A stretch of DNA of 63,973 nucleotides, the filler included, from an uncultured Methanosarcinales archaeon (GTDB lineage: Archaea > Nanobdellota > Nanobdellia > Woesearchaeales > B54-G15), in assembly GCA_964519225.1 (NCBI GenBank). It is 5 parts of 5 records of this genome, joined end to end, with 100 filler letters (N's around TTAATTAATTAA, not from the genome) between each part and the next. Parts side by side here need not be neighbours in the genome. Positions count along the whole stretch, not along the records: positions 29,163 to 43,467 come from CAZFJK010000019.1; 4 more parts are not named here. One strand, 5' to 3'. How positions within the stretch are numbered: position 1 is the stretch's first letter; each line of letters starts with the position of its first letter. The notes under the pieces were generated by a model that was not told the DNA's origin, did no database searches, and was given only the letters and a program-made list of their open reading frames with translations. The translations under genes were made by a program, and so were the position numbers. Positions 29,163 to 43,216 of this stretch are shown piece by piece.

Positions 29163-29393
29163 AGAGGATTGCACAGGCAGAATACAAGGCAAGTGATGGT
29201 AGAAGTTGAAGGTATTGATAGCAAGGATAAAGCTGCGAAGCTTGTCGGAAAGAAAGTTATTTGGAAAACACCGACTGGAAAAGAGATCGTTGGTGAAATT
29301 AGAGCTCCTCATGGAAATAAAGGCAGGGTTAGAGTTCTTTTTGAAAAAGGACTGCCTGGTCAGGCTATAGGGAATAAGGTGGAGATAAAATAA
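29163..29393 (+). CDS. rpl35ae: 50S ribosomal protein L35Ae, 5'-truncated
   Basis: LVGKKVIWK..TGK...G.I.APHGNKGRVRV.FEKGLPGQAIG. Confidence 0.92.
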   Translation, partial: RGLHRQNTRQVMVEVEGIDSKDKAAKLVGKKVIWKTPTGKEIVGEIRAPHGNKGRVRVLFEKGLPGQAIGNKVEIK

Positions 29394-29421
29394 ATTTTAG
29401 AAAGAAAGAACAAGAAAATTT

Positions 29422-29559
29422 CTAAGGACACTTAAACGGTCCTGGGATAACGCCTTTGTACATTAAAATGATTAATATTGCTCCTAATGCAAAGCCGATT
29501 AAAAAGCCCATGAAAGCCGGACCTGCGCACATAAAAAATTGTCCTAGTTTTCCTTTCAT
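29422..29559 (-). CDS. 45-aa single-TM microprotein with a class III-like leader
   Basis: Not in the ORF track. GAGGTGA SD followed by MKGKLGQFFMCAGPAFMGFLIGFALGAILIILMYKGVIPGPFKCP*. Confidence 0.7.
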   Translation of the reverse strand: MKGKLGQFFMCAGPAFMGFLIGFALGAILIILMYKGVIPGPFKCP

Positions 29560-29700
29560 TGAACATCACCTCTTTTTCGATAAGAAAAAAGGTAGAGTAT
29601 AAAAAATTTCCTTTTAAACAGATAGGCAAAGATAGGCACCATGTTAGGGATTAGCTTAATCAGGCTTTTCTTTGCTTTATTTTTCTTTGCTTTATCCTTT

Positions 29701-30393
29701 TTATCTTATAAGAACTTCTTTGAAATATGGCTTTGCAATAGCTGTAAATTCTGTAAGTTTTTCTTTAGATAAAGGCTTTTCGTTTAAAAACTTGGTGCCA
29801 ACTAGCTTTTCTCTTGGAATAAATGGTTGCAGACAATATCTTTTTGCATTGCCGATGAATTCGCATATTGCTTTTATGTCTGATTTTGTGAAGCACGGTA
29901 GAACAGTAGTCCTGAATTCATAATCAATACGCGACTGCTTAATCAATTCGATAGATTGTTTGATGATTTTTGGATCTGCTGATGATGTTTTGCACAAATC
30001 AAGATATTTTTCAGGAGGGGCTTTTACGTCCATAGCTATATAGTCTATCATACCAGAATTAATTGCGTTCTTTAGTTCTTTTGGCAAAGAACCATTTGTA
30101 TCGAGCTTTACCCGAAAGCCAAGGGATTTTATTTTTCTTGCAAATTCTATCAAGTCTCGCTGAAGCAATGGCTCGCCGCCAGTGATGCAAACACCATCGA
30201 TCCATTCGCGCTTTGATTTTAGGAAATTAAAGATTTCATCTTCGGAAATTGTTGGCAATGATTCTGGTTCAAGCACAAGTTGCCAGTTATGGCAGAACTC
30301 GCATCGAAAATTACATCCTGGAGTAAAGACAACACTAACACAATATGGTGGCCAATCTACAAGTGATGTTTGTTCAAAGCCCTTTATGAGAAT
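29701..30393 (-). CDS. nrdG: Anaerobic RNR activating radical-SAM enzyme
   Basis: The frame extends upstream of the track's start through (M)LIKGFEQTSLVDWP...GCNFRCEFCHN (CxxxCxxC). Also ITGGEP, KLDTNG and YEFRTT. Apparent ATT start at 30393. Confidence 0.9.
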   Translation of the reverse strand: MLIKGFEQTSLVDWPPYCVSVVFTPGCNFRCEFCHNWQLVLEPESLPTISEDEIFNFLKSKREWIDGVCITGGEPLLQRDLIEFARKIKSLGFRVKLDTNGSLPKELKNAINSGMIDYIAMDVKAPPEKYLDLCKTSSADPKIIKQSIELIKQSRIDYEFRTTVLPCFTKSDIKAICEFIGNAKRYCLQPFIPREKLVGTKFLNEKPLSKEKLTEFTAIAKPYFKEVLIR

Positions 30394-30399
30394 TTTATC

Positions 30400-30705
30400 T
30401 CACCTTTGATTTAGTTCGCGCAGTGAAGCATGTTCTGTTATTCTCTTAACTTCACCGAGTGAATTTGCTGCATTGATTAGGTTTTCTTTATCGTCGAAAA
30501 AGAGAACAACAGGGATGCATACGCTTCCATCAGGATTGTGCTTTATCTGCTCTTTTATTTTATTGTATATTCTCTTGAACTCGTCCATGCCTTCAATAGT
30601 TGCGATGTTGTAAAGCTTGTATGGAATGTTTTTCTCATCGAAGTAGCGCTTGATATCTATGCATTTATCGCAGCTTGGCATAACGAAAAGGATTGTTTTT
30701 TTCAT
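30400..30705 (-). CDS. Glutaredoxin/NrdH-like redoxin
   Basis: N-terminal CDKC motif and later IPV (cis-Pro); lies between nrdD and nrdG. Confidence 0.8.
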   Translation of the reverse strand: MKKTILFVMPSCDKCIDIKRYFDEKNIPYKLYNIATIEGMDEFKRIYNKIKEQIKHNPDGSVCIPVVLFFDDKENLINAANSLGEVKRITEHASLRELNQR

Positions 30706-30706
30706 T

Positions 30707-33700
30707 TTAGGCTGGTGTTTTTGCTATTGCTTTTTCGATCTTGCTTGGAAAACCTTCTTTCAGAAGCGGTTTGTAATCAAATGTTTTTCTAAACTTGAAT
30801 TCTTCTTGCTTTCCTGCATTCCAGTTCTGCACAGGTCTGAAATAACCAACAATTCTGCTGTAAACTTCTGTTGGTTTTCCGCAGCGAGGACACTGCCAAT
30901 GTTCGCCGCGTAAATATCCGTGAACTTTGCAGATTGAAAATGTCGGCGTAATGCTGAAATAAGGCAGTCTAGTGTTATATGCAATTTTTTTAACTAAGCG
31001 TTTGCATGATTCACCACTTTCAACCCTTTCGCCAAGGAATGTATGGAAGATTGTTCCTCCTGTGTAAAGTGGCTGAATATCGTTTTGATGGTCTAATGCA
31101 AAGAGAAGATCTTTTGTTTTATCAACTGGAAGCTGCGTACTGTTTGTCAGGAATGGAGTTTTATCGCCTGAAACAATTATATCTTTGTACATCTTTTTAT
31201 CGAGCATTGCAAGCCTGAAGGCTGCGCTTTCTGCAGGGGTTGCTTCAAGGTTATAGAGGTTTCCTGTTTCTTGTTGGAATTCGAGTATTTTCTCACGCAT
31301 GAATTTTAACACAGTTATTGTGAAGCGCTTACTTCCTTGAGTTGATATATCTTCACCGCGGAAATTGAGGCATGCTTCGTTCATTCCGACTAAGCCAATA
31401 GTGCTAAAATGATTTCTAAATGTTCCAAGATAAACTTTTGTATAAGGCATTAAACCGCGCTGAAGATTCTGCTCAATTATTTTTCTTTTTATTTCGAGGC
31501 TATCTTTTGCAAGAATCATATACTGTTCAAGTTTTTCAAAAAATTCAGATTCTGATTTTGCTTCATAGCCGATTCTGTTCATATTGATTGTAACAACACC
31601 GATGCTGCCAGTGCTGTCGCCCATGCTCCACATACCGCCTGGCCTGTTCATTAATTGCGTTAGGTCCATGTTTAAGCGACAGCAATTATGCGTGATCGTA
31701 CCTAAAGAATGGACAAAGAGATGGTTTTTTTCAAGTTCTATGTCATAAAAAGTTATTGGTTCTTCTAAAAATTCAATTTCTATATTTTCTACCTGGACTG
31801 TAGCAGCATCTCCATTAAGAATTTTCAATGCTGTTTCTGTAAAGCCACCAAAGCGCTTTAGCATATTAAAACCGATTGTTTTATGAGCGTGTTTGAATAG
31901 ATATCTTCTATCCCCAGAAACTGTGGAATAATTTATACAGAAATTCGGTATTCTGTCGTATAGAATATCTCTATGTACCTTATTCTCGGATCCTCTTCCA
32001 TTACTGTGCTGCAGCCTTATTACCTGAGATTTTTCTTTTGATCTAATTGTTGTTGGAATTCCTGTTAAAGAATAAAGCATTGTCAGGTCTCTGGCAAGAA
32101 GCTCATCTTTAATATGAAGTTCATTGCCTTTTTTATAACCGTCTCCTGTGAAAAATCCATTCAAGAATGCACGAATAACTTTAGTAGGTGAATTGAATAT
32201 TGCATCTGGCAATCTCCCATATTTGTTAAATCCTGCTTTAATGCACGCATTCGAGAACTTCGTATGGTAAAGGTAAACATAAACTGAGTTATACCTGCTA
32301 TCTTGTTTGATGATAACATCTTTATTTAGAACTTCTCTTGCTATTTTTTTGATGAGTTGAATCAGTTCTTTTTCTTCTTTGTTAAAAGTAAATTGCATAC
32401 CTTTTGCTTTTGTTTTTGTTTTATCATAGTAAAGGTAATTTCCATCTGCAGTGAACAATCCGAGTAGAAAAGCTAGTTTTTCATCGAGTTTCCATTCTTC
32501 GATGTACTGGTAACTGTTGTTTAAAACCTTGCTCGCGTTTCTAAGAACGAACAGAAAATTTCCTTTTTTTATTTCGTGAGCAAATTTAAGTTCAATACCC
32601 TCTTTTGTTAAAACAGGTATTAAATGATCTGAGGATAGTTTTATTGTTTTTCCGTCGGATGTTGTTATTTTAGCTAGTTCTTTTCCTTTTTTCTTTAGGA
32701 ATTTGGTTATCCTAACCCACTCTACTTTTAGAGATTCTGGATCCAAACTTAGAATTTCAATTTTATTTCTAGGCGCTGACCAGAAGAAATCAATAGGTTG
32801 GCTTGGATAATGGCACAATTCCTTTATTGTCACGCGTCTAATATTGTTATCTATGCGGATGATAACCTCTTCATCTGGATGGAGACACATCGCGTAAATG
32901 CTTCTAGGATTTAAGCCGCTACCGATGTAGTTCTGAAAATATGGGCTGCCGTATTTTGCAGTTGCTTCAAATAGCATATCAGCTATTTCGCTGTTCCAAT
33001 CGAAGTCTTTTGTTAGATTATATGTTGGTATTGGAAATGTGAATATCTTTCCATGAGCATCGCCTTCAGAAAGAACTTCTAGAAATGCCTTATTCAGGAT
33101 GCTCATTTCGTCTTGACATTCAGCATAGGTAAACGGCATTCTTTTGCCTCCAACAATGGCTTTTTCATCTTGCATAAAATCAGGAACAACCAAGTCGAAT
33201 GTTAAATTTGAGAACGGATACTGTGCGCCCCACCTTGAAGGAATGTTTAAACCATAAACAAGTTCCTGGATGCATTGTTTAACTTCTTTGTAGCTCAAAT
33301 TATCTACTTTTATGAAAGGAGCAAGTAAAGTATCGACGCCGCTGAATGCCTGTGCACCAGCAAATTCCATTTGCAAGCACCCTATGTAATTAACCATGTG
33401 TCTGATGACTGTGCTGAGATGTTTTGCTGGTCTTGCTTCTGTTTTATTTCTGACTCCGCCAAAACCCATAAGAAGCAGGTTCTTGAGAGAATGACCACAG
33501 CAATAACCAATGATTGGATGACCTAGGTCATGAATGTGCATATAGCCTAGCTTATGAGCCATGCTTATCTGCGGAGGATATATCTCGTTTAATGCATAGG
33601 TTGCCATAACTTTTCCTGAGACATACAAAACAAGACCTGAAAATGAGAATTCTTCATTGCTGTTTTCTTTTACGCGCCAGTCACGCTGATGGATGTAAGC

Positions 33701-34180
33701 TGTAATTGCATCGCTTACGTCAAGCATTGCAAGTTTTGCTTCGCGTTGTCGCGCTCTTGTTTCTCTATAAAGAATAAATGCCTTTGCTGTTTTTGCATGA
33801 CCTTCTTTAATTAAGACCTGCTCTATTGTGTCTGAAACATCTTCTACAGAAGGGATATTTGCTTCATCAAAGCGCTGATTTAGGTTTTCAATGACTTTTT
33901 CTGCAAGTCTCGTAGCGAGTTCTCTGTCTTTTCCGCCAACTGATTGTGCTGCTTTGAAAATAGCTTCGATTATTTTTTCTTTTTTGAATGGAACAAGCCT
34001 GCCATCACGCTTTTTGACAAAAGGAATCTTTATGCCTTTTTCTGCCTCAAGTCTTTCATAGGTTGTGAATCTTTTGCCGCAGTCAAGGCATTCACGTCTG
34101 CGTCGATTAGCAAAATCGTCTTCTGCAAAGCGCTTGTCAATGACTTTTGTTTTTTCAGAACCGCAAAAAGGGCATTTCAT
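30707..34180 (-). CDS. nrdD: Class III ribonucleoside-triphosphate reductase with N-terminal NrdR-type Zn ribbon, ATP cone and an intein
   Basis: MKCPFCG...RRRRECLDCGKRFTTYER; ATP cone VKKRDG...AKAFILYR; HIHDL, YCCG, AM|...|CCRL, EATPAES; glycyl-radical loop YSRIVGY. Confidence 0.95.
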   Translation of the reverse strand: MKCPFCGSEKTKVIDKRFAEDDFANRRRRECLDCGKRFTTYERLEAEKGIKIPFVKKRDGRLVPFKKEKIIEAIFKAAQSVGGKDRELATRLAEKVIENLNQRFDEANIPSVEDVSDTIEQVLIKEGHAKTAKAFILYRETRARQREAKLAMLDVSDAITAYIHQRDWRVKENSNEEFSFSGLVLYVSGKVMATYALNEIYPPQISMAHKLGYMHIHDLGHPIIGYCCGHSLKNLLLMGFGGVRNKTEARPAKHLSTVIRHMVNYIGCLQMEFAGAQAFSGVDTLLAPFIKVDNLSYKEVKQCIQELVYGLNIPSRWGAQYPFSNLTFDLVVPDFMQDEKAIVGGKRMPFTYAECQDEMSILNKAFLEVLSEGDAHGKIFTFPIPTYNLTKDFDWNSEIADMLFEATAKYGSPYFQNYIGSGLNPRSIYAMCLHPDEEVIIRIDNNIRRVTIKELCHYPSQPIDFFWSAPRNKIEILSLDPESLKVEWVRITKFLKKKGKELAKITTSDGKTIKLSSDHLIPVLTKEGIELKFAHEIKKGNFLFVLRNASKVLNNSYQYIEEWKLDEKLAFLLGLFTADGNYLYYDKTKTKAKGMQFTFNKEEKELIQLIKKIAREVLNKDVIIKQDSRYNSVYVYLYHTKFSNACIKAGFNKYGRLPDAIFNSPTKVIRAFLNGFFTGDGYKKGNELHIKDELLARDLTMLYSLTGIPTTIRSKEKSQVIRLQHSNGRGSENKVHRDILYDRIPNFCINYSTVSGDRRYLFKHAHKTIGFNMLKRFGGFTETALKILNGDAATVQVENIEIEFLEEPITFYDIELEKNHLFVHSLGTITHNCCRLNMDLTQLMNRPGGMWSMGDSTGSIGVVTINMNRIGYEAKSESEFFEKLEQYMILAKDSLEIKRKIIEQNLQRGLMPYTKVYLGTFRNHFSTIGLVGMNEACLNFRGEDISTQGSKRFTITVLKFMREKILEFQQETGNLYNLEATPAESAAFRLAMLDKKMYKDIIVSGDKTPFLTNSTQLPVDKTKDLLFALDHQNDIQPLYTGGTIFHTFLGERVESGESCKRLVKKIAYNTRLPYFSITPTFSICKVHGYLRGEHWQCPRCGKPTEVYSRIVGYFRPVQNWNAGKQEEFKFRKTFDYKPLLKEGFPSKIEKAIAKTPA
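31685..32887 (-). mobile_element. Intein with LAGLIDADG endonuclease (401 aa) in NrdD
   Basis: Starts CLHPDE; LLGLFTADG and FLNGFFTGDG; ends FYDIEL...THN followed by +1 Cys. Confidence 0.93.
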
Positions 34181-34211
34181 TTGCTACACCTCTTTTTTCA
34201 CTTTTAAATGA

Positions 34212-34227
34212 ACACAACATATAGTAT
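34212..34227. promoter_or_regulatory. NrdR box 1 (imperfect)
   Basis: ACACAACATATAGTAT matches the NrdR consensus acaCwAtATaTwGtgt. Confidence 0.8.
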
Positions 34228-34243
34228 TGGGATGGTTAGCTAA

Positions 34244-34259
34244 ACACAATATATTGTGT
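34244..34259. promoter_or_regulatory. NrdR box 2 (perfect palindrome)
   Basis: ACACAATATATTGTGT, extending to a 20-bp palindrome at 34242-34261; starts 32 bp from box 1. Confidence 0.88.
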
Positions 34260-34300
34260 TTGGATATTGTTGGAAAGGTATGTTAAGAAAACACAGGTTG

Positions 34301-34316
34301 TTTATATCTATTTCTG
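34301..34316 (-). promoter_or_regulatory. Candidate BRE/TATA promoter of the nrd operon
   Basis: Minus strand CAGAAATAGATATAAA, about 40 nt upstream of box 2. Confidence 0.45.
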
Positions 34317-34358
34317 TATAAAGAAATATATTTTATGAAGATTAGGAAGAAGTCGCTG

Positions 34359-35555
34359 TTAGAAAAAGGAAAAATACCATGCTATTGTGGGCAATAAAAG
34401 GCATCCCATTGCTGTTGTTCTTTGAATCTGCCAGATATTTGCTAATAAGCCTATTGCGGTTGAAATAATTAGTAAAAGAACTCCAATCGGTCCTGAAATA
34501 TAAAAAGAAGCGATGAAAAGGAAAATAATCAAAGAGAGATTTAAAATTGAATAGTTTAGCTTGTTTATGGTTTTTATTGCGATGTTTGTTGAGAAAATGG
34601 CTATTAAAACTGCAAATCCTGATGCGATAAGTGCAGTTATTGTTAAAATCGTCAGAAATCTTGCATCTACAAATACGATCTTTGATAATGCAAGAATAGC
34701 ACCATTTCTTGCTTTTCCTAAGCAGTAAAGGAAAAGAGCACTTGAAAACATTGCTATTGTATTAATTGCTCCAAGCATCAATAAATATGCTCTCTGACTG
34801 ATTTTTTTGATAAGCTGTGTAGAAATAACAGCAGCTATAGCAGGACTGATTGCAGGAAATACTGTTATCATTGTACTGCTGCAAAATGCTCCGAACAATG
34901 CCTTTACTAATTCAATACGCTTGATAGGGATGTGTTTCTTTTTCTGCTGTGGAATTCTTGTTTTTTTAAAAAGACTGAATGTCAAAAGGCTACATCCAAA
35001 AAGGCCTGATAGCATTGGAAAAAGCGGCTGGTCTATTCTTGGTGTGCTTAATGCAATAAAACCAAGTAAACCAGAGGCTATGAATATGAAAAGCGCTTTT
35101 AATCGTCTTTGGCTTTTTACAATAATAAAGATTGAAATGAAAGCAAGGATAAAACCGATTAATGGTAAAGCAAAGTTATAGATGTGTTTGATAGCTATTA
35201 AAAGAAAGGGCATTACTCCGATAGTTAAAAGCAGTCCAAGAAAAGAACCAATAACAGTATACCTGATAGCATCGTAGCCATAGCCTTTTAGCAAAAGCCT
35301 GTGTCCTGGCAGAGCTGCTAAAGCCATATCAGATTCTGGTGCTCCCAGAAGTATAGAAGGTATTGCATTAAGAAAGGTATGTGTTATTGACATTGCAAAG
35401 ATAAATATTGCAAGATAGATAGGATTAATATGGATAAGGTAGGTTATAGCAAAGATTGAAATGAGATTGATATGTAATCCAGGAATGAGTCCTGTAAATG
35501 TTCCAACCAGTATTCCAAGTAAAATGGATAAAATGGCTGGAATGAAATCTATCAT
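34359..35555 (-). CDS. TctA / DUF112 family membrane protein
   Basis: GTFTGLIPGLHIN, THTFLNAIPSILLGAP, LPGHRLLLKG and ARNG motifs. Confidence 0.88.
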   Translation of the reverse strand: MIDFIPAILSILLGILVGTFTGLIPGLHINLISIFAITYLIHINPIYLAIFIFAMSITHTFLNAIPSILLGAPESDMALAALPGHRLLLKGYGYDAIRYTVIGSFLGLLLTIGVMPFLLIAIKHIYNFALPLIGFILAFISIFIIVKSQRRLKALFIFIASGLLGFIALSTPRIDQPLFPMLSGLFGCSLLTFSLFKKTRIPQQKKKHIPIKRIELVKALFGAFCSSTMITVFPAISPAIAAVISTQLIKKISQRAYLLMLGAINTIAMFSSALFLYCLGKARNGAILALSKIVFVDARFLTILTITALIASGFAVLIAIFSTNIAIKTINKLNYSILNLSLIIFLFIASFYISGPIGVLLLIISTAIGLLANIWQIQRTTAMGCLLLPTIAWYFSFF

Positions 35556-35570
35556 TATTTTATTTTTAGA

Positions 35571-35927
35571 TTATTTTTGAATTATGCTATAAGCTACGAT
35601 TTGGGTTCTGTTTTGGAATGATTCCACCTTTCCATTGATTGAAATATAGTCGCCTTCTTTTATGTCGAGATTCGGCTTGTTTTTGAAGACAACAATTTCT
35701 GTTTCCTTTGGTTCAAGCAAGGTGATTATTGCTATTCTTTCTTTTTGTTCTATCTTGCTGACAACGCCTTCTACTGATACTGATTTTCCAAGCAGCTGCG
35801 TTGGTTTTTCTTCAAGTTGATAAATGCTAATTTTACTTAGTTCTAAAGATTGTGTAAGAAAGTAAAGGAGTAATAAGCCAAGAATAACCACAATGATGGA
35901 AAATAAAATTAAAGTTTTTTCTTGCAT
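35571..35927 (-). CDS. Membrane-anchored OB-fold protein
   Basis: N-terminal TM; VSVEGVV...GDYISINGKV pattern. Confidence 0.75.
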   Translation of the reverse strand: MQEKTLILFSIIVVILGLLLLYFLTQSLELSKISIYQLEEKPTQLLGKSVSVEGVVSKIEQKERIAIITLLEPKETEIVVFKNKPNLDIKEGDYISINGKVESFQNRTQIVAYSIIQK

Positions 35928-36003
35928 GCCTGTGTTTTTTCTTAATCCTATTTTTAAATTTATTTAGAAAGGATTTTATATTTTTGTTGTTTTCTGCTAG
36001 GAC

Positions 36004-36396
36004 ATGCACGTTGAAGAAGTAATGCATAAGGTTGAAACAATAGATGAAAATGCTGATGTCAAGACAGCAGCTGATTTGATGGCTAAAAAACAGATCGGGA
36101 GTCTTGTTGTTTTAAAAAGAGGAAAGGTTGTTGGAATAATAACAGAAAGAGATTTTCTCGAACGGGTTGTTAGATCAGGAAAAGCAGGAAAGAAAAAGTT
36201 GAAAGTGAAAGACATAATGTCAAAGAACATTGTAAGCATAACGCCCGAGGCATTGCTTGAAGATGCGGCTGCATTAATGACTAGACACAAAATTAAAAGA
36301 CTTCCTGTTGTTAAAAATGGGCGCTTGGTTGGAATAATTACTGCTAGTGATATCATTGCAAATGCTGAAAGCATAGGAGAGCTATCTTTGTTTTAG
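36004..36396 (+). CDS. CBS-domain pair protein
   Basis: IGSLVV...VGIITERD and IKRLPVV...LVGIITASD. Confidence 0.93.
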   Translation: MHVEEVMHKVETIDENADVKTAADLMAKKQIGSLVVLKRGKVVGIITERDFLERVVRSGKAGKKKLKVKDIMSKNIVSITPEALLEDAAALMTRHKIKRLPVVKNGRLVGIITASDIIANAESIGELSLF

Positions 36397-36397
36397 G

Positions 36398-37552
36398 ATG
36401 TCTGAGAAAAAGAAAAATGAGGGCAGGATTAAAGAATTGCTAACATTTTCTAGTGCTTCTTTCCTGAATGATGTTGGTTCTGATATGCTCAGGCCTTTTT
36501 GGCCTATTTTTGTCACGAGCATACTTAATGCGCCTATGAGTTTTCTTGGATTGCTTGATGGTTTAGGCGAAGCAATAGCTTATGCTGTTCGCTTTCCAGG
36601 AGGATACCTATCTGATAAGCTCAGGCAGAGAAAACCATTTATCTGGTTTGGGTATTTGTTTGCTGCCTTTGCAAGGATCGGTTATGCAATGTCGAGATTT
36701 GCAGGTATGCTCCTTCCTTTTAAGATATTAGACAGGTTGGGAAAAATAAGAGATCCGCCTAGAGATGCTTTGCTAAGCGAGGTTGTCGATAAGCGTAAAA
36801 GAGGTAGGGGCTTTGGATTTTTAACGGCTGCTGATAATCTCGGTGCAACGCTAGGGCCGTTGATTGCTTTTTTGATTTTTCCATTCCTTGGTTTTAGGAA
36901 ACTTTTTCTTGTTGCAGCTATCCCAAGCTTTGTTAGTGCTTTTTTGATTTTTTCTTTGATACGTGAAAAAAGACCGACTAAGAAGACTGGATTTAAACTT
37001 AGGTTTAATGAATTGGATAGGCGTTTGAAATTGTTAATATTTAGTTCTGCTATCTTTGCATTAGGATGGTTTTCGCTTTCGTTCTTTGTTGTTTTTGTAA
37101 CGCAAAGTGTTAAGATTGGATTCGTGCCCCTGCTTTTTATAACAATGAGTGGGTTTGCTTCATTAGCTGCTTATCCTGCTGGAAGAATTTCTGACAGGAT
37201 CGGAAGAAAAGTCGTTCTTTTAACAGGATATCTATTGTTTAGTTTGGTTTGTTTCTTGTTTGTTCATGCTAAGTTAAATCTATTCAGCGCATTTGTTCTT
37301 TTTGCTTTATATGGCGTACATTATGGTATTATAACAACGTTACAATCACCTTTTGTTGCTGACCTTTCGAAGAAAACATTAAGAGCCAGTGCGATTGGTA
37401 TTTTTCAAACTGTTTTTGGGTTGTGCAGTTTGCCTGCTTCGCTTATAGCTGGATTTCTGTGGGATGCGTTTTCTGCGAGTGTTGCTTTTTATTATGGGAT
37501 GTTTGTCTCATTGGTCGGTGCAGTCTTGTTTTTTGTTCTGGTGCGGTCTTAA
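36398..37552 (+). CDS. MFS transporter
   Basis: About 12 TMs; GYLSDK, PPRDALL and GRISDRIGRK motifs. Confidence 0.92.
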   Translation: MSEKKKNEGRIKELLTFSSASFLNDVGSDMLRPFWPIFVTSILNAPMSFLGLLDGLGEAIAYAVRFPGGYLSDKLRQRKPFIWFGYLFAAFARIGYAMSRFAGMLLPFKILDRLGKIRDPPRDALLSEVVDKRKRGRGFGFLTAADNLGATLGPLIAFLIFPFLGFRKLFLVAAIPSFVSAFLIFSLIREKRPTKKTGFKLRFNELDRRLKLLIFSSAIFALGWFSLSFFVVFVTQSVKIGFVPLLFITMSGFASLAAYPAGRISDRIGRKVVLLTGYLLFSLVCFLFVHAKLNLFSAFVLFALYGVHYGIITTLQSPFVADLSKKTLRASAIGIFQTVFGLCSLPASLIAGFLWDAFSASVAFYYGMFVSLVGAVLFFVLVRS

Positions 37553-37679
37553 AAATTTTAATACTTAAAAGGTACTATACTTGATAGGTATAATTTGCTG
37601 ATTTTTTTAGAAGGTGTCTTTTTAATTAAGAAAAAAACAAATAACTTTTTAAATAGATATTTCGAAGAATATATTTAGA

Positions 37680-39551
37680 ATGTCTAAAGGTTTTAAAGAC
37701 TTGAATTTTAAAACAACGGCAGAGATACCTGTTCCAAAGAAGTTGATAGATCAAGTTATTGGACAAGATGAAGCAATTGAGGTGATAAGAAAAGCAGCGC
37801 AGCAAAGACGGCATGTTCTGCTTATAGGCGAACCTGGAACAGGAAAGAGTATGCTTGGTTTAGCTTTAGCTGAATTGCTACCGAAAGAAAAGCTGGTGGA
37901 CGTTCTTTCGCTGCCCAATCCTAATGACGAGAATCAGCCGATCATCAAAACTGTTCCAGCTGGAGAAGGAAGAAAGATTGTAATGAATGCTAGGCTTCAT
38001 GCGATAGGTCTGAATAGAACAAAAACTTTTGTTTTCTTTGCTGTTGCTTTCTTTACACTGCTTGTACCATGGTGGATCAGAAGCTATTATAAGTCAAATA
38101 TAATGTTTGCTGCTTTTTTTCTCGGCGGAATGATATTTCTTGCTGCGTTAGTTTTGTTTATGAATATGAATATCAGAAGAACAAGCTATGAGAATGTTCC
38201 CAAACTGGTTGTTGATAATTATAAGCAGGAGAAAGCACCTTTTTATGATGCTACTGGAGCACATGCCGGTGCTTTACTTGGAGATGTTTTGCATGATCCT
38301 TATCAAAGCGGCGGGCTCGGAACGCCTGCTCATCAAAGGGTTGTTGCAGGAATGATTCACAAAGCGCATCTCGGTGTTTTATTCATAGACGAAATAGCAA
38401 CATTGCAGCCGCATACCCAGCAGGAATTGCTTACTGCATTGCAAGAAGGAAAGTATGCGATAACTGGGCAAAGCGAAAGAAGTGCTGGCGCAATGGTAAG
38501 GACAGAACCAGTGCCGTGCAAATTCATTTTGGTTGCTGCAGGAAATTTTGAAACAATAAAGCAGATGCATCCTGCTTTAAGGAGCAGAATAAGGGGTTAT
38601 GGCTATGAGGTTTATATGAATGATACAATGCCCGATAATGCTGAAAACAGAGCAAAGCTTGCAAGGTTTGTTGCGCAAGAAGTTATGAAAGATGGAAGAA
38701 TTCCTCATTTCGGCAAGGATGCTGTTCTTGCAATAATTGAGGAAGCAAGAAAAAGGGCTAATAGGAAGGGTCATTTAACTTTAAGATTAAGGGAACTTGG
38801 TGGTTTAGTTAGGGCAGCAGGAGACCTTGCGCTTGAAGAAGGTAAAAAGATTGTCGAAGCAAGGCATGTGGTTGAAGCAAAAAAGATCGCAAGAACACTT
38901 GAGCAGCAAATAGCTGATAAGTTTATCGAAAAGAAAAAGGAATACGAGGTAATATTAACTAAAGGAACGAAAATAGGAAGGGTGAATGGTTTAGCTGTTA
39001 TTGGAACAGAAGGAGCTTATAGCGGAATAATACTGCCGATTGAAGCGAGCGTTGTTCCTGGCGGAAAAGAAAAAGAAATTGTTGCAACAGGAAAGCTTGG
39101 AGAGATCGCAAAAGAAGCAATAAAGAATGTAAGTGCTATTGTTAAGCGGTATTTTGGTGAAGATTTAAAGAAAAATTATGATATTCATGTTCAATTTTTG
39201 CAGACCTATGAGGGTGTTGAAGGTGATAGCGCAAGTATTGCTGTTGCGACTGCCATAGTTTCTGCATTGAAGCAGATTCCTGTTAAGCAAACTGTTGCTC
39301 TAACTGGAAGCTTGAGTGTAAATGGGAATGTGCTGCCAATCGGCGGAGTTACTGCTAAAGTCGAGGCTGCTATTGATGCTGGTCTGAAAGAGATTATTAT
39401 TCCAAAAGCTAATAGCAAAGATATTGTTTTGAAGAAAGAGCGATTGAAAAAAATTAAAATAATCCCTGTAACGAGAATAGAAGAAGTGCTGGAGCATGCG
39501 CTTGACTGGAAAGGGAAGGAAAAGTTACTGAATCTTTTCAAGAAAAGTTAG
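37680..39551 (+). CDS. lonB: Archaeal membrane-bound Lon protease (LonB)
   Basis: DQVIGQ, GEPGTGKS, two TMs inside the AAA domain, LFIDE, catalytic GDSAS and KVEAA. Confidence 0.96.
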   Translation: MSKGFKDLNFKTTAEIPVPKKLIDQVIGQDEAIEVIRKAAQQRRHVLLIGEPGTGKSMLGLALAELLPKEKLVDVLSLPNPNDENQPIIKTVPAGEGRKIVMNARLHAIGLNRTKTFVFFAVAFFTLLVPWWIRSYYKSNIMFAAFFLGGMIFLAALVLFMNMNIRRTSYENVPKLVVDNYKQEKAPFYDATGAHAGALLGDVLHDPYQSGGLGTPAHQRVVAGMIHKAHLGVLFIDEIATLQPHTQQELLTALQEGKYAITGQSERSAGAMVRTEPVPCKFILVAAGNFETIKQMHPALRSRIRGYGYEVYMNDTMPDNAENRAKLARFVAQEVMKDGRIPHFGKDAVLAIIEEARKRANRKGHLTLRLRELGGLVRAAGDLALEEGKKIVEARHVVEAKKIARTLEQQIADKFIEKKKEYEVILTKGTKIGRVNGLAVIGTEGAYSGIILPIEASVVPGGKEKEIVATGKLGEIAKEAIKNVSAIVKRYFGEDLKKNYDIHVQFLQTYEGVEGDSASIAVATAIVSALKQIPVKQTVALTGSLSVNGNVLPIGGVTAKVEAAIDAGLKEIIIPKANSKDIVLKKERLKKIKIIPVTRIEEVLEHALDWKGKEKLLNLFKKS

Positions 39552-39600
39552 GGAAATGTTTTTATAAAAATAGTGATTAACTTGTTTTGGTGATCTTAAG

Positions 39601-40023
39601 TTGAAGCTTGTTGAGAGGATTGGTGAGCTTATAAGTAGGCTTTCAGCAAGCAATGTTGAAAGTATTAAACCTGGGCTTGTTTCTGCTGTTAATGAATTAA
39701 AGAAGTTGTTTTCTGAGGCAAAGGCGGAGCTTGAAAAAGGTGCTGGCATTGCTGTTAGTGTTAGTGCACAGGATTTTGAGGAATTGAAAAGAAAGCTCGA
39801 TCAGATTATTGACCAAAACAAGAAGATAGCACGGGGAATTCTCGTTCTTGCTGATATGCTTGAAGAGAAAAGAACTGGAAAGTTAACAATGGAAGAAGTT
39901 AAAGTTCCTTCTGGTCCTTCTGCTGAAAGAAAACTTCCAGTTAGGATTCCGCCGCCGTTCGAGCCAGAGCAAGGAAAAAAGAAAGGTTATCTTGAGCGAA
40001 TAGAAGAAGCTTTTAAAAAATGA
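39601..40023 (+). CDS. Coiled-coil hypothetical protein with Pro-rich, amphipathic C-terminus
   Basis: TTG start after a GGTGA SD; QNKKIARGILVLAD; ends KKKGYLERIEEAFKK. Confidence 0.7.
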   Translation: MKLVERIGELISRLSASNVESIKPGLVSAVNELKKLFSEAKAELEKGAGIAVSVSAQDFEELKRKLDQIIDQNKKIARGILVLADMLEEKRTGKLTMEEVKVPSGPSAERKLPVRIPPPFEPEQGKKKGYLERIEEAFKK

Positions 40024-40673
40024 TTGATGATAAAGCACTTGCTAAATGGATTCTGTTGAAAGAAACTAAGGTTGGGAGGGAAGCAGAGGAAGTGAAGGTG
40101 GAGAAAAAAGAAGAAAAAGATTTTTCTGAACTTGGAAAGGTGCTTTCTGAGTTAAAAGAAAAGATAGAAGCGCTTTCGTCTTTTGAAGAAAAAAAGACAG
40201 GAGAGATATTAGCTAAAGAAGATAGGCTTTTGGCTGGTGAAGAAAGGATTGAAAAAGAAGTTGGCGAAAGTCATGATGAATTGATTGAGATTGAAGAGCG
40301 GTTAAAACATATAGAAGAGTATTATGAAGAACTGAAAAAGAAAGGTGAACATAAAGGCTTGATTAAGGCAATAGGTGAAAAGATTGCAAGGCTGAAAGAG
40401 CTTTTATTTAAGAAGAAGATTGAGAGGGCTGAAAAAGAACTTATAGCAAGAGAGGAACTTGGAAAACCTGAATTCGTGAAAAAGGCTGAAAAGACAAGAC
40501 CTGTTGAAGAAAAGATAAAGCCTATGGTAAGACACAGGTTATTGCTTCCACCGCCGGCACCGCCGATTGAGATGAAGCGCGAAAAGGAATTTGGAGCATT
40601 GCCATTGTTGCCGCCACCACCGCCAAAGCCAAAAAAGAAAAAGGGATTTTTTGCAAAGCTTTTTGGAAAATGA
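40020..40673 (+). CDS. Coiled-coil protein with poly-Pro and amphipathic tail
   Basis: Ends LLPPPPPKPKKKKGFFAKLFGK; ATGA overlaps on both sides. Confidence 0.75.
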   Translation: MIDDKALAKWILLKETKVGREAEEVKVEKKEEKDFSELGKVLSELKEKIEALSSFEEKKTGEILAKEDRLLAGEERIEKEVGESHDELIEIEERLKHIEEYYEELKKKGEHKGLIKAIGEKIARLKELLFKKKIERAEKELIAREELGKPEFVKKAEKTRPVEEKIKPMVRHRLLLPPPAPPIEMKREKEFGALPLLPPPPPKPKKKKGFFAKLFGK

Positions 40674-40879
40674 AAATCGAAGAATGGACAAAGGAATTCA
40701 AGCAGAAGCTTGAAGAATATGAAAAGAAACATGGGAAGGAAAAAGAGGTTGAGAAAATACCTGTTGTTTTGAAGCGATGTCCGAAATGTTTTAATCTTAG
40801 CTTGGAGTATGATCCAAAAACAGGAAGGATTTATTGCACAAAATGCGGGTTCGAAGCGTACATTCCAAAAACAAAGTAA
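40670..40879 (+). CDS. Small Zn-ribbon protein
   Basis: CPKC..LSLEYDPKTGRIYCTKCG. Confidence 0.8.
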   Translation: MKIEEWTKEFKQKLEEYEKKHGKEKEVEKIPVVLKRCPKCFNLSLEYDPKTGRIYCTKCGFEAYIPKTK

Positions 40880-41409
40880 GAAAAAGCAAGGAAACATCAC
40901 TTTACAAAGAACAAAGGATTGGTGTTTTTGTTGATGTTCAGAATCTTTACTATAGTGCAAAGTATATCTATGGTGCTAAAGTAAATTTTGATGCTGTTTT
41001 AAAAGAGGCTGTGAAGGGAAGAAAGCTGATAAGGGCAATAGCTTATGTGATAAGAACAGAAGAGTTGAAAGAAGCTGCTTTTTTCGAAGCACTAAAGAAG
41101 ATCGGGTATGAGATAAGGGCAAAGGACTTGCAGGTTTTCTATGGCGGTGCAAAAAAGGGAGACTGGGATATCGGTATTGCGATGGATAGCATAGAGCTAG
41201 CACCGAAGTTGGATACAATAGTTTTAGTTAGCGGAGATGGTGATTTTGTGCCGTTGGTTAAACATCTGAAATACGCTCTGGGTTGCAGGGTTGAGGTTAT
41301 TGCTTTTGGAAAAAGTGCGTCAAGCAAGCTAATAGCTGAGGCTGATGACTTTGTTGATTTAGATGAAAATCCGAAGCGATTTTTGATCAAATGGAGAAAG
41401 CAAAAGTAG
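40843..41409 (+). CDS. NYN-domain (LabA/DUF88) protein
   Basis: VFVDVQN, KGDWDIGIAMD and LVSGDGDF motifs; the start codon is uncertain. Confidence 0.9.
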   Translation: MRVRSVHSKNKVRKSKETSLYKEQRIGVFVDVQNLYYSAKYIYGAKVNFDAVLKEAVKGRKLIRAIAYVIRTEELKEAAFFEALKKIGYEIRAKDLQVFYGGAKKGDWDIGIAMDSIELAPKLDTIVLVSGDGDFVPLVKHLKYALGCRVEVIAFGKSASSKLIAEADDFVDLDENPKRFLIKWRKQK

Positions 41410-41978
41410 CGTTGCTTGGCTTTGTTTTTTCTTTGATTGTTTTCTTGCTTTGCATTAGAAGTGTGTTTTTTGAAACTGAAAATGAAAAGCAAAAACAGGT
41501 TGTTGGTTTTTTATTTGGTAAAAGCAGTTATTCAGCTTTAGCCGGATTAAATTTTTCTAAAGCTGAGGTTGAGCATCTTCTTGAGGTGAAGGGTTTTGTC
41601 TTTATTGGAAGGATTTTGCTTTTTTGCTTGCTTGCTTTTTTCTTCGGTTTTTTGATTGTTGATATTGCAAATAGAAAAGAACGGCTTTTTCTCTATGGCG
41701 GGATTTCTGGAGCTTTTATTTTGCTTTTTGGGTTTATTGCAATGTTAAGTTTTGATCAGAGTTTTGAATTAATGCATGGGTTGTTTTTTAAAACGCAATG
41801 GCAGTTTGGCGAGAATAGTTTGTTGATTAAAATGTTTCCTTATGAATTTTTTGTAGAAAGAGCTAAGATGATTCTATTTAGATTTTCTGTATTTGTTGTT
41901 TCGTGCTTTGCAATCAGCTTTCTACTTCGACGCGTATTTGCTGTACGCCGTAAGGCTCGCTATTCTTTGAAACGTTAA
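41391..41978 (+). CDS. DUF1461-like integral membrane protein
   Basis: Four TMs; EVEHLLEVK, F...H..FF...W.F and LIKMFP..FF motifs. Confidence 0.75.
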   Translation: MEKAKVALLGFVFSLIVFLLCIRSVFFETENEKQKQVVGFLFGKSSYSALAGLNFSKAEVEHLLEVKGFVFIGRILLFCLLAFFFGFLIVDIANRKERLFLYGGISGAFILLFGFIAMLSFDQSFELMHGLFFKTQWQFGENSLLIKMFPYEFFVERAKMILFRFSVFVVSCFAISFLLRRVFAVRRKARYSLKR

Positions 41979-42429: not shown

Positions 42430-42433
42430 TTGA

Positions 42434-42649
42434 TTATCTCGCTATGATCTCGTATTCTTTTATGATTATGTAAAGGAAGAGAAACAATACTATTATTCCT
42501 GCAAGCATGTAATATGCGCCGTCAGTAATGCCCTTTTCAAGCATCTTGTATAGGCCAAAAACAATTAGGAAGAACCCTATCCACAGAAATTTATCAAGCA
42601 CCAACTTCATTATTTCGAATTCTTGCTGTGGAGTGAGTCTCTTTTTCAT
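42434..42649 (-). CDS. Small two-TM protein
   Basis: QEFEIMKLVLDKFLW plus two hydrophobic helices. Confidence 0.7.
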   Translation of the reverse strand: MKKRLTPQQEFEIMKLVLDKFLWIGFFLIVFGLYKMLEKGITDGAYYMLAGIIVLFLFLYIIIKEYEIIAR

Positions 42650-42650
42650 T

Positions 42651-43175: not shown

Positions 43176-43216
43176 TTTAACAGCACCTCTTTTGAAAAGG
43201 AGAAAAGAAAGGAATT

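What the first reader, a model, noticed from the sequence alone, without database searches (positions are those of the whole stretch)
33760..34316. Self-repressing ribonucleotide reductase: NrdR DNA-binding Zn ribbon fused to NrdD, with tandem NrdR boxes upstream
Seen: the first ~46 aa of NrdD (MKCPFCG...VIDKR...RRRRECLDCGKRFTTYER) are the NrdR Zn ribbon with its RRRR motif. They are joined in frame to a single ATP cone, which ends in the RNR-style AKAFILYR rather than the NrdR-style AYVRFASVY, and then to the catalytic core. Two 16-bp NrdR boxes lie 32-79 nt upstream of the ATG (34212 ACACAACATATAGTAT and 34244 ACACAATATATTGTGT). They are 32 bp apart and sit downstream of a candidate TATA box at about 34301-34308. 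Known: in bacteria NrdR is a stand-alone repressor whose ATP cone senses ATP/dATP and which binds tandem boxes about 31-32 bp apart. RNR ATP cones act as the dATP off-switch. Inference: one polypeptide uses one nucleotide sensor for both allosteric inhibition and transcriptional auto-repression, with a bacterial operator grafted onto an archaeal TATA promoter. This is the best candidate for an undescribed system in the window. I cannot check how often the fusion already appears in databases.
Basis: partly seen in the sequence, partly recalled or inferred. Interest (0 to 1): 0.88.

Follow-up and report, generated by a model that had tools for sequence, protein, structure and literature searches.

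The report
Ribonucleotide reductase carrying its repressor's DNA-binding domain
A tiny archaeon has fused the DNA-binding zinc ribbon of the repressor NrdR onto the anaerobic ribonucleotide reductase that NrdR normally controls, and kept the repressor's two binding sites in front of the gene, so the enzyme probably shuts off its own gene.

Summary
The gene at 30707-34180 (-) encodes an NrdR zinc ribbon (residues 1-42), one ATP cone, and a catalytically intact, intein-bearing class III RNR. Two NrdR boxes lie 32 bp apart at -79 and -47 from the ATG. They are the only matches with at most 2 mismatches in the 869-kb genome. That genome (97% complete) has no stand-alone nrdR.

Relatives in the same archaeal (Woesearchaeota-like) order mostly carry stand-alone nrdR, often directly upstream of nrdD. 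The fusion therefore came from that gene pair. There are two forms:
- Type B: whole NrdR joined to NrdD.
- Type A (this gene): the NrdR cone is deleted, so the ribbon sits on NrdD's own cone.

The fusion is not rare. I found 156 protein clusters, and 17 of 308 genomes examined in the order carry it, after repeated gains or losses. All 15 fused genes examined keep boxes upstream, and each of those genomes has no other NrdR ribbon. The DNA-reading residues are nearly invariant.

Autorepression is therefore well supported by comparison but not shown. Control of it by nucleotides through the RNR cone is inference. I found no paper on the fusion. Earlier scan notes describe a different family (wHTH plus dead NrdD) on other DNA. 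Verdict: new variant of a known kind.

The parts
30707..34180 (-). Fused gene: NrdR Zn ribbon + ATP cone + class III RNR (NrdD) interrupted by an intein; 1157 aa
   Evidence: ORF and translation; Pfam and NCBIfam
34055..34180 (-). NrdR-type Zn ribbon, residues 1-42 (C3, C6, C31, C34; K12, D15, R17, R26-R29, R37)
   Evidence: PF22811 E 6.6e-18. The residues match, number for number, those that contact DNA in S. coelicolor NrdR (PMC9110341, passages read). PDB sequence search puts NrdR first.
34022..34054 (-). Linker, residues 43-53, probably including the remnant of the old NrdD N-terminus
   Evidence: Least conserved part among type A proteins (identity 0.31). Its length varies.
33752..34021 (-). 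Single ATP cone of RNR (NrdD) type, residues 54-143
   Evidence: PF03477 E 5.7e-21. NrdD-cone HMM 140.9 bits against NrdR-cone HMM 15.1 bits. The modelled cone superposes on 5im3, 5olk, 9dca and 8p23 at 1.5-2.5 A.
32888..33751 (-). NrdD core, N-extein (residues 144-431)
   Evidence: PF13597 and NF006126; alignment to T. maritima NrdD 4coi
31685..32887 (-). Intein with LAGLIDADG endonuclease (residues 432-832), inserted in the radical-cysteine loop AM|CCRL
   Evidence: PF14890, PF14528, TIGR01445 and TIGR01443. The allele of the same genus lacks it (P0002, 756 aa).
30710..31684 (-). NrdD core C-extein with CCRL loop (C833, C834), C-terminal Cys site and glycyl-radical loop RIVGY (G1112)
34244..34259 (.). 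Distal NrdR box ACACAATATATTGTGT (perfect palindrome), -79..-64 from the ATG
   Evidence: Identical in the genome of the same genus.
34212..34227 (.). Proximal NrdR box (ATACTATATGTTGTGT on the gene strand), -47..-32 from the ATG, 16-bp spacer to the distal box
34187..34192 (-). Shine-Dalgarno-like GAGGTG, 6 nt before the ATG
   Evidence: Read from the sequence
34301..34308 (-).
   Evidence: Sequence only. No RNA data. One search suggests the usual TATA position is nearer the ATG.
30400..30705 (-). Glutaredoxin-like gene (101 aa) directly downstream, same strand
   Evidence: PF00462 E 3.6e-6
29701..30393 (-). Radical-SAM activase (NrdG-like); probable ATT start just after the Grx stop codon
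   Evidence: PF04055 E 1.7e-18. The frame with CNFRCEFC runs up to the TGA of the Grx gene.

Best explanation
The gene encodes a working anaerobic ribonucleotide reductase that also carries, at its N-terminus, the DNA-binding zinc ribbon of the RNR repressor NrdR.

Origin. It arose from an adjacent nrdR-nrdD pair. First the two genes were read through into one protein (type B). Then the NrdR cone was deleted in frame, so that the ribbon now sits directly on NrdD's own ATP cone (type A, this gene).

Proposed mechanism. Ribbons from different NrdD subunits pair on each palindromic box, as in NrdR. Two NrdD dimers (a tetramer) span the two boxes, which lie three helical turns apart. This blocks TBP/TFB or RNA polymerase at the nrdD-grx-nrdG promoter. 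The enzyme thus represses its own operon as its amount rises. Repression is probably stronger when dATP fills the cone, pairs the cones and favours tetramers, the same state that switches catalysis off.

Shown:
- The architecture and the intact catalytic motifs.
- The boxes, unique in the genome, with no other NrdR ribbon present.
- Conservation of ribbon and boxes across fused lineages.

Inferred:
- DNA binding.
- Repression.
- Dependence on nucleotides.
- The oligomer geometry.
For: 1. Architecture and intact enzyme: Pfam and NCBIfam. The CCRL loop, the RIVGY glycyl loop and the C-terminal Cys site align to T. maritima NrdD 4coi. Grx-like and radical-SAM genes follow.

2. Boxes: they are the only sites with at most 2 mismatches in 869 kb, and they form a pair 32 bp apart. 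Their 16-bp spacer lies inside the 14-18 bp optimum measured for NrdR (PMC12051234, passages).

3. No other NrdR ribbon in the genome. The second RNR, of class I/II type, has no box within 1.5 kb.

4. Comparison of 15 fused genes from 15 genomes of 6 families:
- 15 of 15 have a box with at most 3 mismatches within 300 bp upstream.
- 13 of 15 have a box with at most 2 mismatches.
- 13 of 15 have a tandem pair spaced 30-32 or 41 bp.
- There are 0 sites with at most 3 mismatches in 35.3 kb of their coding sequence.
- Each of these genomes has a single PF22811 match.

5. In five type A genomes, 6 of the 7 sites with at most 1 mismatch genome-wide lie upstream of the fused gene. The seventh lies inside an ORF.

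6. Negative control: five nrdD genes in genomes without the ribbon show 0 sites with at most 2 mismatches in 23.7 kb.

7. Ribbon under constraint:
- D15, R17, R26-29 and R37 are kept in 81-82 of 82 type A and 63-71 of 71 type B proteins.
- Mean pairwise identity among type A proteins is 0.71 for the ribbon, 0.69-0.77 for the core and 0.59-0.61 for the cone.
- In the diverged strain X5, 7 of the 8 listed substitutions in the ribbon codons are at third positions.

8. Ancestry: 9 of 28 stand-alone nrdR loci have nrdD directly downstream. Sister type A and type B proteins differ by exactly one cone.

9. Repeated origin or loss: an AU test rejects a single fused clade (p 0.0013). The ribbon is also fused to a second, very divergent NrdD clade and to class I/II RNRs.

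10. Model of residues 1-150: pLDDT 90.9. Its whole-length fold matches are NrdR structures. The cone alone matches RNR cones that bind two dATP (the number of bound nucleotides is from Table 4 of PMC11226230).

11. dATP shifts P. copri NrdD towards tetramers (PMC11226230, passages).
Against: - There is no binding, expression or transcription-start data.
- The NrdR-type cone is gone in type A. In S. coelicolor NrdR that cone binds ATP and dATP together and sets the 12-mer/8-mer/4-mer equilibrium (PMC9110341). An RNR cone may not reproduce that switch.
- The bulky NrdD dimer may not allow ribbons to pair as they do in NrdR.
- In the model, the orientation of ribbon to cone differs from all NrdR chains (rmsd 11-12 A over 138-143 columns).
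- The ribbon-to-cone distance varies among type A proteins (13-19 residues, against 12-13 in NrdR).
- 2 of 15 fused genes lack a tandem pair, and one has only a single 3-mismatch box.
- Box positions range from -33 to -261 from the ATG, on either side of candidate TATA boxes.
- Two stand-alone nrdR genes in the genus g81, which also holds type B fusions, have no box within 300 bp.
- The 15 genomes are kin: five come from one genus and three from one family.
- Part of the protein set was collected by similarity to the ribbon, which inflates its apparent conservation.
- The Cys counts are circular, because the motif was used to pick the rows.
- The AU group was named after a first tree had been seen.
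Confidence: 0.6

Rival explanations
1. The fused protein does bind the boxes and represses its operon, but binding depends only on how much protein there is (plain autogenous control). The NrdD cone regulates catalysis alone and has no say over DNA binding.
For: - The specialised NrdR cone is deleted in 83 of 83 type A proteins.
- The linker is poorly conserved and varies in length.
- In S. coelicolor NrdR the ribbon pairs alone build the tetramer (PMC9110341).
Against: - Type B fusions keep the NrdR cone as well as the NrdD cone, so nucleotide control of DNA binding is kept at least there.
- The ribbon is always placed directly before a cone, never elsewhere in NrdD.
- dATP changes the cone pairing and oligomeric state of a related NrdD (PMC11226230).
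Confidence: 0.2
2. The ribbon and the boxes are leftovers of a recent gene fusion and no longer function. The operon is expressed constitutively or controlled by something else.
For: - Type B fusions can be made or undone by a single change between adjacent genes. One genus (g81) holds both fused and stand-alone forms.
- One fused gene has only a weak single box.
Against: - The ribbon is as conserved as the catalytic core across type A proteins with about 70% core identity.
- The DNA-reading residues are nearly invariant.
- The boxes are kept while the spacers between them differ.
- The own protein sits in an all-type-A clade of 34 clusters.
Confidence: 0.08
3. DNA regulates the enzyme rather than the reverse. 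The ribbon tethers or assembles NrdD on the boxes or on DNA in general, or simply adds an oligomerisation interface that tunes catalysis, without a transcriptional role.
For: - Ribbon pairs are protein-protein interfaces in NrdR (about 1200 A2 buried; PMC9110341).
- RNR activity is commonly controlled through oligomerisation (PMC11226230).
Against: - The base-reading residues D15 and R17 are conserved.
- Specific boxes placed just upstream of the gene's own start are hard to explain by an oligomerisation role alone.
Confidence: 0.07
4. The fusion is an assembly or gene-calling artefact, such as a lost stop codon, a frameshift or a chimeric contig.
For: The genome is a 53-contig metagenome-type assembly.
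Against: - Contigs from another sample and from another study carry the same open frame, with no indel in the coding part.
- The genome of the same genus carries it too.
- 156 protein clusters from several sources show the same architecture.
Confidence: 0.01

Closest known systems
NrdR, the RNR-specific repressor (S. coelicolor 7P37/7P3F, E. coli 9FVR/9FXK; TIGR00244)
   Same: - N-terminal Zn ribbon with two CxxC motifs, the RRRR motif, D15, R17 and R37 at the same positions.
- Palindromic 16-bp boxes of the same consensus, in tandem about three helical turns apart, upstream of an RNR operon that includes the regulator's own coding sequence.
- A ribbon followed at once by an ATP cone.
   Different: - The cone is of NrdD type, not NrdR type. 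TIGR00244 scores below its cut-off.
- The protein does not stand alone at about 150 aa. It continues into a 700-aa enzyme.
- The host is an archaeon with TBP.
- Boxes are found only at its own operon, not at the second RNR gene.
Class III RNR with an N-terminal ATP cone (P. copri NrdD 8P23/8P28; S. thermophilus NrdD 9D3X)
   Same: Cone, alpha/beta-barrel core, radical cysteine loop, C-terminal Zn site and glycyl-radical loop, with an activase gene nearby. The cone is most similar to cones that bind two nucleotides.
   Different: It has an extra 46-residue DNA-binding ribbon before the cone, and an intein in the cysteine loop.
Type B fusions: whole NrdR (ribbon + NrdR cone) joined to cone-bearing NrdD, found here in database proteins and in genomes of the same order
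   Same: Same ribbon, same boxes upstream, and no stand-alone nrdR in the genome.
   Different: Type B keeps both cones (about 810-890 aa). The window's gene (type A) has lost the NrdR cone.
Trigger enzymes that repress their own genes, such as PutA, BirA and NadR (recalled, not from a call)
   Same: One polypeptide is both an enzyme and a DNA-binding repressor of its own pathway genes, with a ligand of the enzyme setting the balance.
   Different: The folds and DNA-binding domains are unrelated. None is a ribonucleotide reductase.
wHTH + ATP-cone + catalytically dead NrdD regulators of other archaea
   Same: A DNA-binding domain and an ATP cone on an NrdD scaffold in archaea, placed at RNR genes.
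   Different: Those proteins use a winged helix and have lost their catalytic residues. This protein uses the NrdR ribbon and keeps all the catalytic motifs I checked.

Membership tests
NrdR (TIGR00244 / PF22811 + NrdR-type ATP cone) | N-terminal Zn ribbon with two CxxC motifs | tested here: met
   PF22811 covers residues 1-42 at 64.8 bits against a cut-off of 27.2. C3, C6, C31 and C34 are present.
NrdR (TIGR00244 / PF22811 + NrdR-type ATP cone) | DNA-contact residues (R12, D15, R17, R26-29, R37 in S. coelicolor numbering, PMC9110341) | tested here: met
   K12, D15, R17, R26-R29 and R37 sit at identical positions. Position 12 is K instead of R.
NrdR (TIGR00244 / PF22811 + NrdR-type ATP cone) | NrdR-type ATP cone and whole-protein equivalog score | tested here: not met
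   TIGR00244 scores 68.8 bits against a cut-off of 124.65. The NrdR-cone HMM gives 15.1 bits and the NrdD-cone HMM 140.9 bits.
NrdR (TIGR00244 / PF22811 + NrdR-type ATP cone) | [quoted passage not shown] | tested here: met
   Two boxes with 0 and 2 mismatches and a 16-bp spacer, unique in the genome. Spacer rule from PMC12051234.
NrdR (TIGR00244 / PF22811 + NrdR-type ATP cone) | Nucleotide-dependent, sequence-specific DNA binding and repression | not testable with these tools
   Needs EMSA or MST and transcription assays.
Class III ribonucleotide reductase NrdD | Curated family score | tested here: met
   NF006126 scores 992.9 against 548. TIGR02487 scores 494.4 against 326.35. PF13597 E 6.4e-176.
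Class III ribonucleotide reductase NrdD | Glycyl-radical loop, radical cysteine loop, C-terminal Cys (Zn) site | tested here: met
   RIVGY (G1112), AM|CCRL restored after intein removal (C833, C834), and C...CPRC, all aligned to T. maritima NrdD 4coi.
Class III ribonucleotide reductase NrdD | Radical-SAM activase (NrdG) encoded nearby | tested here: met
   PF04055 ORF two genes downstream with a CNFRCEFC motif. Its start codon is non-canonical.
Class III ribonucleotide reductase NrdD | Enzymatic activity and dATP inhibition | not testable with these tools
   Needs an anaerobic activity assay.
Intein (Hint + LAGLIDADG) | N-terminal Cys, C-terminal HN followed by Cys+1, splicing domains, homing endonuclease | tested here: met
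   C432...HN832|C833. PF14890, TIGR01445, TIGR01443 and PF14528. An intein-free allele exists in the same genus.
wHTH + ATP-cone + dead NrdD regulators (earlier scan notes) | Winged-helix DNA-binding domain and loss of catalytic residues | tested here: not met
   No wHTH in Pfam. Catalytic motifs are present.

The most novel reading that the evidence does not exclude
A single RNR-type ATP cone serves as the shared nucleotide sensor for two outputs in one polypeptide. dATP both switches the reductase off and assembles NrdD dimers into a tetramer whose paired NrdR ribbons clamp the tandem operator. This would make a self-repressing trigger enzyme of dNTP synthesis. It arose repeatedly in DPANN archaea through a two-step path (read-through fusion, then deletion of the NrdR cone). 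It would show that the DNA-binding switch of NrdR can be driven by a foreign cone.
Probability: 0.35. Interest if true: 0.78.

Novelty: new variant of a known kind. Interest (0 to 1): 0.62.

Why it matters
NrdR is described as a small stand-alone bacterial repressor that is rare or absent in archaea. Three points follow from what I found.

1. **Distribution.** In this archaeal order NrdR is common: 320 of 401 genomes carry the ribbon.

2. **A natural domain swap.** Evolution has repeatedly welded the DNA-binding ribbon onto the enzyme it controls, and in type A has discarded NrdR's own sensor domain. This tests how far the ATP cones of NrdR and of RNR are interchangeable. That question follows directly from the recent NrdR and NrdD structures.

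3. **A minimal feedback circuit.** If the protein works as proposed, it is the first ribonucleotide reductase that is its own transcription factor, in genomes under 1 Mb.

There is also a practical point. Public annotation labels these proteins simply as ribonucleoside-triphosphate reductase, so the regulatory domain goes unnoticed.

Tried and rejected
- **Complex prediction.** I submitted four copies of residues 1-150. The job was lost on the remote machine. No result exists, so the oligomer geometry is untested.
- **RNA evidence.** No RNA holder was listed, so the transcription start and expression are untested.
- **Rfam.** Nothing in 34100-34450 at E up to 1, so no known riboswitch or leader.
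- **Sigma-70 and terminator scan.** Not meaningful in an archaeon. Its only 'terminator' is the palindromic distal box itself.
- **First pattern.** I wrote it 18 nt long by mistake. It only found shifted copies of the distal box, and I replaced it.
- **The search for related loci in genome contigs.** Returned 33 loci, but only 4 covered residues 1-250. It was of little use for the survey, though it did give the title 'Candidatus Woesearchaeota archaeon' for the record of the same genus.
- **Extra box in G188 (C76:2671, 1 mismatch).** It lies inside a 426-aa ORF, so I treat it as chance.
- **TATA mapping.** Only a weak peak, about 19 of roughly 50 motifs at -48 to -37. This is suggestive, not decisive.
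- **Literature.** Searches for NrdR with NrdD+fusion+archaea, zinc ribbon+ATP-cone+fused, DPANN, Woesearchaeota or Nanoarchaeota, and for 'NrdR-like', found no paper describing the fusion. The passages with 'fused' or 'fusion' that I read in the four papers I opened concern tags, reporter genes or a cited Grx-NrdB title; I did not read those passages in the other listed papers. The library misses most subscription journals. I did not see the 2005 paper that defined NrdR boxes, nor any supplements.
- **The search of earlier findings by place.** Nothing.
Full report
**What is there**

The window is several contigs joined by runs of N. The finding lies on contig C19 (window 29163-43467) of an 868,879-bp, 53-contig genome that is 97% complete, with 36.6% G+C.

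The ORF at 30707..34180 (-) encodes 1157 residues. Pfam finds four things:
- Zn_ribbon_NrdR at residues 1-42 (E 6.6e-18).
- One ATP cone at residues 54-143 (E 5.7e-21).
- NRDD in two pieces (E 6.4e-176).
- An intein with a LAGLIDADG domain between them.

NCBIfam files the protein as ribonucleoside triphosphate reductase (NF006126, 992.9 bits against a cut-off of 548). The NrdR equivalog TIGR00244 stays below its cut-off (68.8 against 124.65).

The enzyme part looks intact. Three catalytic features align to T. maritima NrdD 4coi:
- The radical-cysteine loop AM|CCRL, which intein removal would restore.
- The glycyl loop RIVGY.
- The C-terminal Cys site.

A glutaredoxin-like gene and a radical-SAM activase follow on the same strand.

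The organism is an archaeon. The genome encodes TBP, which matched only the archaeal control genomes. The window encodes ribosomal protein L35Ae. The record of the same genus is titled Candidatus Woesearchaeota archaeon.

**The boxes**

On the gene strand, ACACAATATATTGTGT lies at -79..-64 and ATACTATATGTTGTGT at -47..-32 from the ATG. A GAGGTG Shine-Dalgarno sequence lies 6 nt before the ATG.

I compared the genome with the consensus ACACWATATATWGTGT, which I recalled rather than took from a call. These two sites are the only ones with at most 2 mismatches in the whole genome, and the only tandem pair. A looser pattern with up to 3 mismatches is no more frequent in the window than in shuffles (14 against 11.8). 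So the argument rests on the two strong sites and their spacing.

The 16-bp spacer lies within the 14-18 bp range that four bacterial NrdRs bind best (PMC12051234, passages read).

The genome has a single match to the NrdR ribbon, which is this gene. Its second RNR has an ATP cone and a class I/II-type large subunit, and has no box within 1.5 kb.

**Is the frame real?**

- Contigs of a second sample are identical over 33820-34402.
- A 6.6-kb contig from another study covers the whole stretch with 52 substitutions. Its only indel is 1 nt at 34277, in the intergenic region.
- Of the 8 listed substitutions inside the ribbon codons, 7 fall on third positions.
- The genome of the same genus carries the same fusion without the intein (757-aa frame) and with both boxes unchanged.

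**Where it came from**

I searched one genome from each of 40 families of the order. Of these, 28 have a stand-alone nrdR of 148-177 aa, and only the genome of the same genus has a long frame.

- In 9 of the 28 stand-alone loci, nrdD starts directly after nrdR.
- In 2 more, a cone-bearing gene follows.
- 11 of the 28 have a box with at most 3 mismatches, always on the upstream side of nrdR.

The ancestral unit is therefore boxes-nrdR-nrdD.

A protein search with the ribbon alone, restricted to proteins of 636-2025 aa, returned 123 hits, of which 120 were listed:
- 117 combine PF22811, PF03477 and PF13597.
- 2 combine the ribbon with class I/II RNR domains.
- 1 combines it with tRNA-synthetase domains.

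Among the 120 clusters nearest to the NrdD core, 50 carry the ribbon.

I sorted 227 sequences by N-terminal length and motif:
- 83 are type A: ribbon, one cone, NrdD.
- 73 are type B: ribbon, NrdR cone, NrdD cone, NrdD.
- 71 are unfused.

In 83 of 83 type A proteins the single cone is the NrdD one (median 142 bits against 12 bits). Sister type A and type B proteins differ by exactly the first cone. The junction lies at the homologous first strand of the two cones. This fits an in-frame deletion between tandem cones.

**How often**

In the order, 320 of 401 genomes have the ribbon. I saw frame lengths for 308 of those 320. The 12 I left out are flagged unpublished.

- 17 of the 308 have frames of 757-1158 aa: 9 type A and 8 type B.
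- Each of the 17 genomes has only that one match.
- These tallies include unpublished genomes. G205 is one of the 17, and G315 and G273 are among the stand-alone rows. Without G205 the count is 16 of 307.

One genus (g81) holds five type B genomes and two with a 150-aa nrdR. A phylum sample gave 117 of 151 genomes with the ribbon, and 2 more fused genes in other orders of the class.

On a FastTree of 597 core columns, the fused state changes at least 13 times, and at least 7 times if only well-supported branches are counted. A very divergent NrdD clade of 35 rows has 34 type B rows and one row that my motif rule scored as unfused despite a type-B-length N-terminus. The window's protein lies in an all-type-A clade of 34 rows.

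On a 52-row subsample of the main clade, an AU test rejects holding all fused rows together (delta lnL 125.8, p 0.0013). That group was named after I had seen the first tree.

**Do boxes travel with the fusion?**

I examined 15 fused genes with upstream DNA: 8 type A and 7 type B, from 6 families. A sixteenth, G365, sits at a contig end. Results:
- 15 of 15 have a box with at most 3 mismatches within 300 bp upstream.
- 13 of 15 have a box with at most 2 mismatches.
- 13 of 15 have a tandem pair spaced 30-32 or 41 bp. The latter corresponds to the second permitted spacer class.
- Their 35.3 kb of coding sequence holds no site with at most 3 mismatches.

Two further controls:
- Five nrdD genes from three genomes without any NrdR ribbon show no site with at most 2 mismatches, and one with 3, in 23.7 kb.
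- In five type A genomes searched whole, 6 of the 7 sites with at most 1 mismatch lie upstream of the fused gene. The seventh lies inside an ORF.

The spacers between boxes are not conserved, while the boxes are.

Results against a simple picture:
- G067 has one weak box and G237 has no pair.
- Box positions range from -33 to -261.
- The two stand-alone nrdR genes of g81 have no box within 300 bp.
- The genomes are kin, not independent samples.

**Is the ribbon still a DNA reader?**

In the S. coelicolor NrdR-DNA structure, R12, R26-29 and R37 hold the DNA backbone, and D15 and R17 read the bases. Ribbon pairs build the tetramer that spans the two boxes (PMC9110341, passages read).

The window's protein has K12, D15, R17, R26-29 and R37 at the same numbers. 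Across 82 type A proteins these residues are kept in 81-82. Across 71 type B proteins they are kept in 63-71. The Cys counts there are circular.

Mean pairwise identity among type A proteins:

| Region | Mean pairwise identity |
|---|---|
| Ribbon | 0.71 |
| Catalytic core | 0.69-0.77 |
| Cone | 0.59-0.61 |
| Linker | 0.31 |

The second of those two calls uses only the 34 type A proteins that were collected by core similarity.

An AlphaFold2 model of residues 1-150 is confident (pLDDT 90.9). Over its whole length its best matches are NrdR structures (9fxk, 9gex, 9fvr, 7p37; E 4e-10 to 4e-9), but with a different domain orientation (rmsd 11-12 A). The cone alone fits PaNrdA 5im3, LbNrdB 5olk, S. 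thermophilus NrdD 9dca and P. copri NrdD 8p23/8p28 at 1.5-2.5 A. Three of these (5im3, 5olk and the P. copri NrdD cone) are listed in Table 4 of PMC11226230 as binding two nucleotides. In P. copri NrdD, dATP shifts the dimer-tetramer balance towards tetramers with paired cones.

**Mechanism proposed**

The enzyme binds its own operator through ribbons contributed by two NrdD dimers, and so represses nrdD-grx-nrdG. dATP, which pairs the cones and favours tetramers, would strengthen binding while it inhibits catalysis. The steps from 'binds' onward are inference.

The relation to the promoter is open. However, TATA-like motifs upstream of 146 Shine-Dalgarno-led ORFs of this genome cluster at -48 to -37. 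That is where the AT-rich core of the proximal box lies (small numbers). Direct competition with TBP is therefore an alternative. In relatives, the boxes lie upstream of, across, or downstream of strong TTTATATA elements.

**Comparison and novelty**

The protein works like NrdR at the DNA end and like a cone-bearing NrdD at the other end. It fails NrdR membership on the cone and on the curated score, and it passes NrdD membership. In concept it is a trigger enzyme, like PutA or BirA (recalled).

Earlier notes of this scan describe wHTH + cone + dead NrdD proteins in other archaea. I did not check those notes. They prompted me to test the catalytic motifs here, which are present, so this is a different thing.

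I found no paper on the fusion, nor on NrdR in DPANN archaea. The papers I read call NrdR rare or absent in archaea. The library lacks most subscription journals, and domain-architecture databases may already display the combination. I therefore rate it a new variant of a known kind: common in sequence data, apparently undescribed, and experimentally untested.

Noticed in passing
window 30391-30402 and 29701-30393 (-): The NrdG-like activase has no ATG, GTG or TTG before its CNFRCEFC radical-SAM motif. Its frame runs on directly from the TGA of the Grx-like gene. The sequence AGGTGAgataaaATT suggests an ATT start 7 nt after a Shine-Dalgarno sequence that overlaps the stop codon. Read-through of the TGA is the alternative.
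   Followed up: partly
window 31685-32887 (-): A 401-residue intein with a LAGLIDADG endonuclease sits in the radical-cysteine loop (AM|CCRL) of NrdD. The allele of the same genus (756 aa) lacks it, so the intein is polymorphic within the genus.
   Followed up: partly
order and phylum surveys (G handles): The NrdR Zn ribbon is present in 320 of 401 genomes of the order and 117 of 151 of a phylum sample. The papers I read call NrdR rare or absent in archaea. These tallies include 15 genomes flagged unpublished.
   Followed up: partly
database proteins such as P0025, P0038, P0127, P0130; G053:C22:4830-4955, G074:C63:9717-10155: Many NrdDs of this clade, fused and unfused, end right after the Zn site (...GEHFxCP) without a glycyl-radical loop. 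Separate 83-103-aa ORFs that match only the last 50 positions of the NRDD profile exist in two genomes. This may be a split-off glycyl-radical domain.
   Followed up: no
database proteins P0122-P0180 (about 818 aa), P0138, P0168, P0175: Unfused NrdDs of about 818 aa carry a C-terminal glutaredoxin-like domain that resembles the separate 101-aa Grx-like gene downstream of nrdD in the window.
   Followed up: no
database proteins P0028, P0040, P0118: The NrdR ribbon plus one cone is also fused to class I/II-type RNR large subunits (two clusters). In one cluster a ribbon-cone unit precedes tRNA-synthetase domains (precomputed Pfam; N-termini seen).
   Followed up: no
L033, L036, L037, L084 upstream regions: A conserved AGTTGTRACAWAT...TTTWWATAWA element, which looks like BRE/TATA, lies just downstream of the distal box pair in several type A genes. 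G129 and G344 have a second box pair downstream of it.
   Followed up: partly
G000:C6:10767-14048 (L003): The genome holds a second RNR with an ATP cone (Ribonuc_red_lgN/lgC, 714-aa frame) next to a prolipoprotein diacylglyceryl transferase gene. There is no NrdR box nearby.
   Followed up: partly
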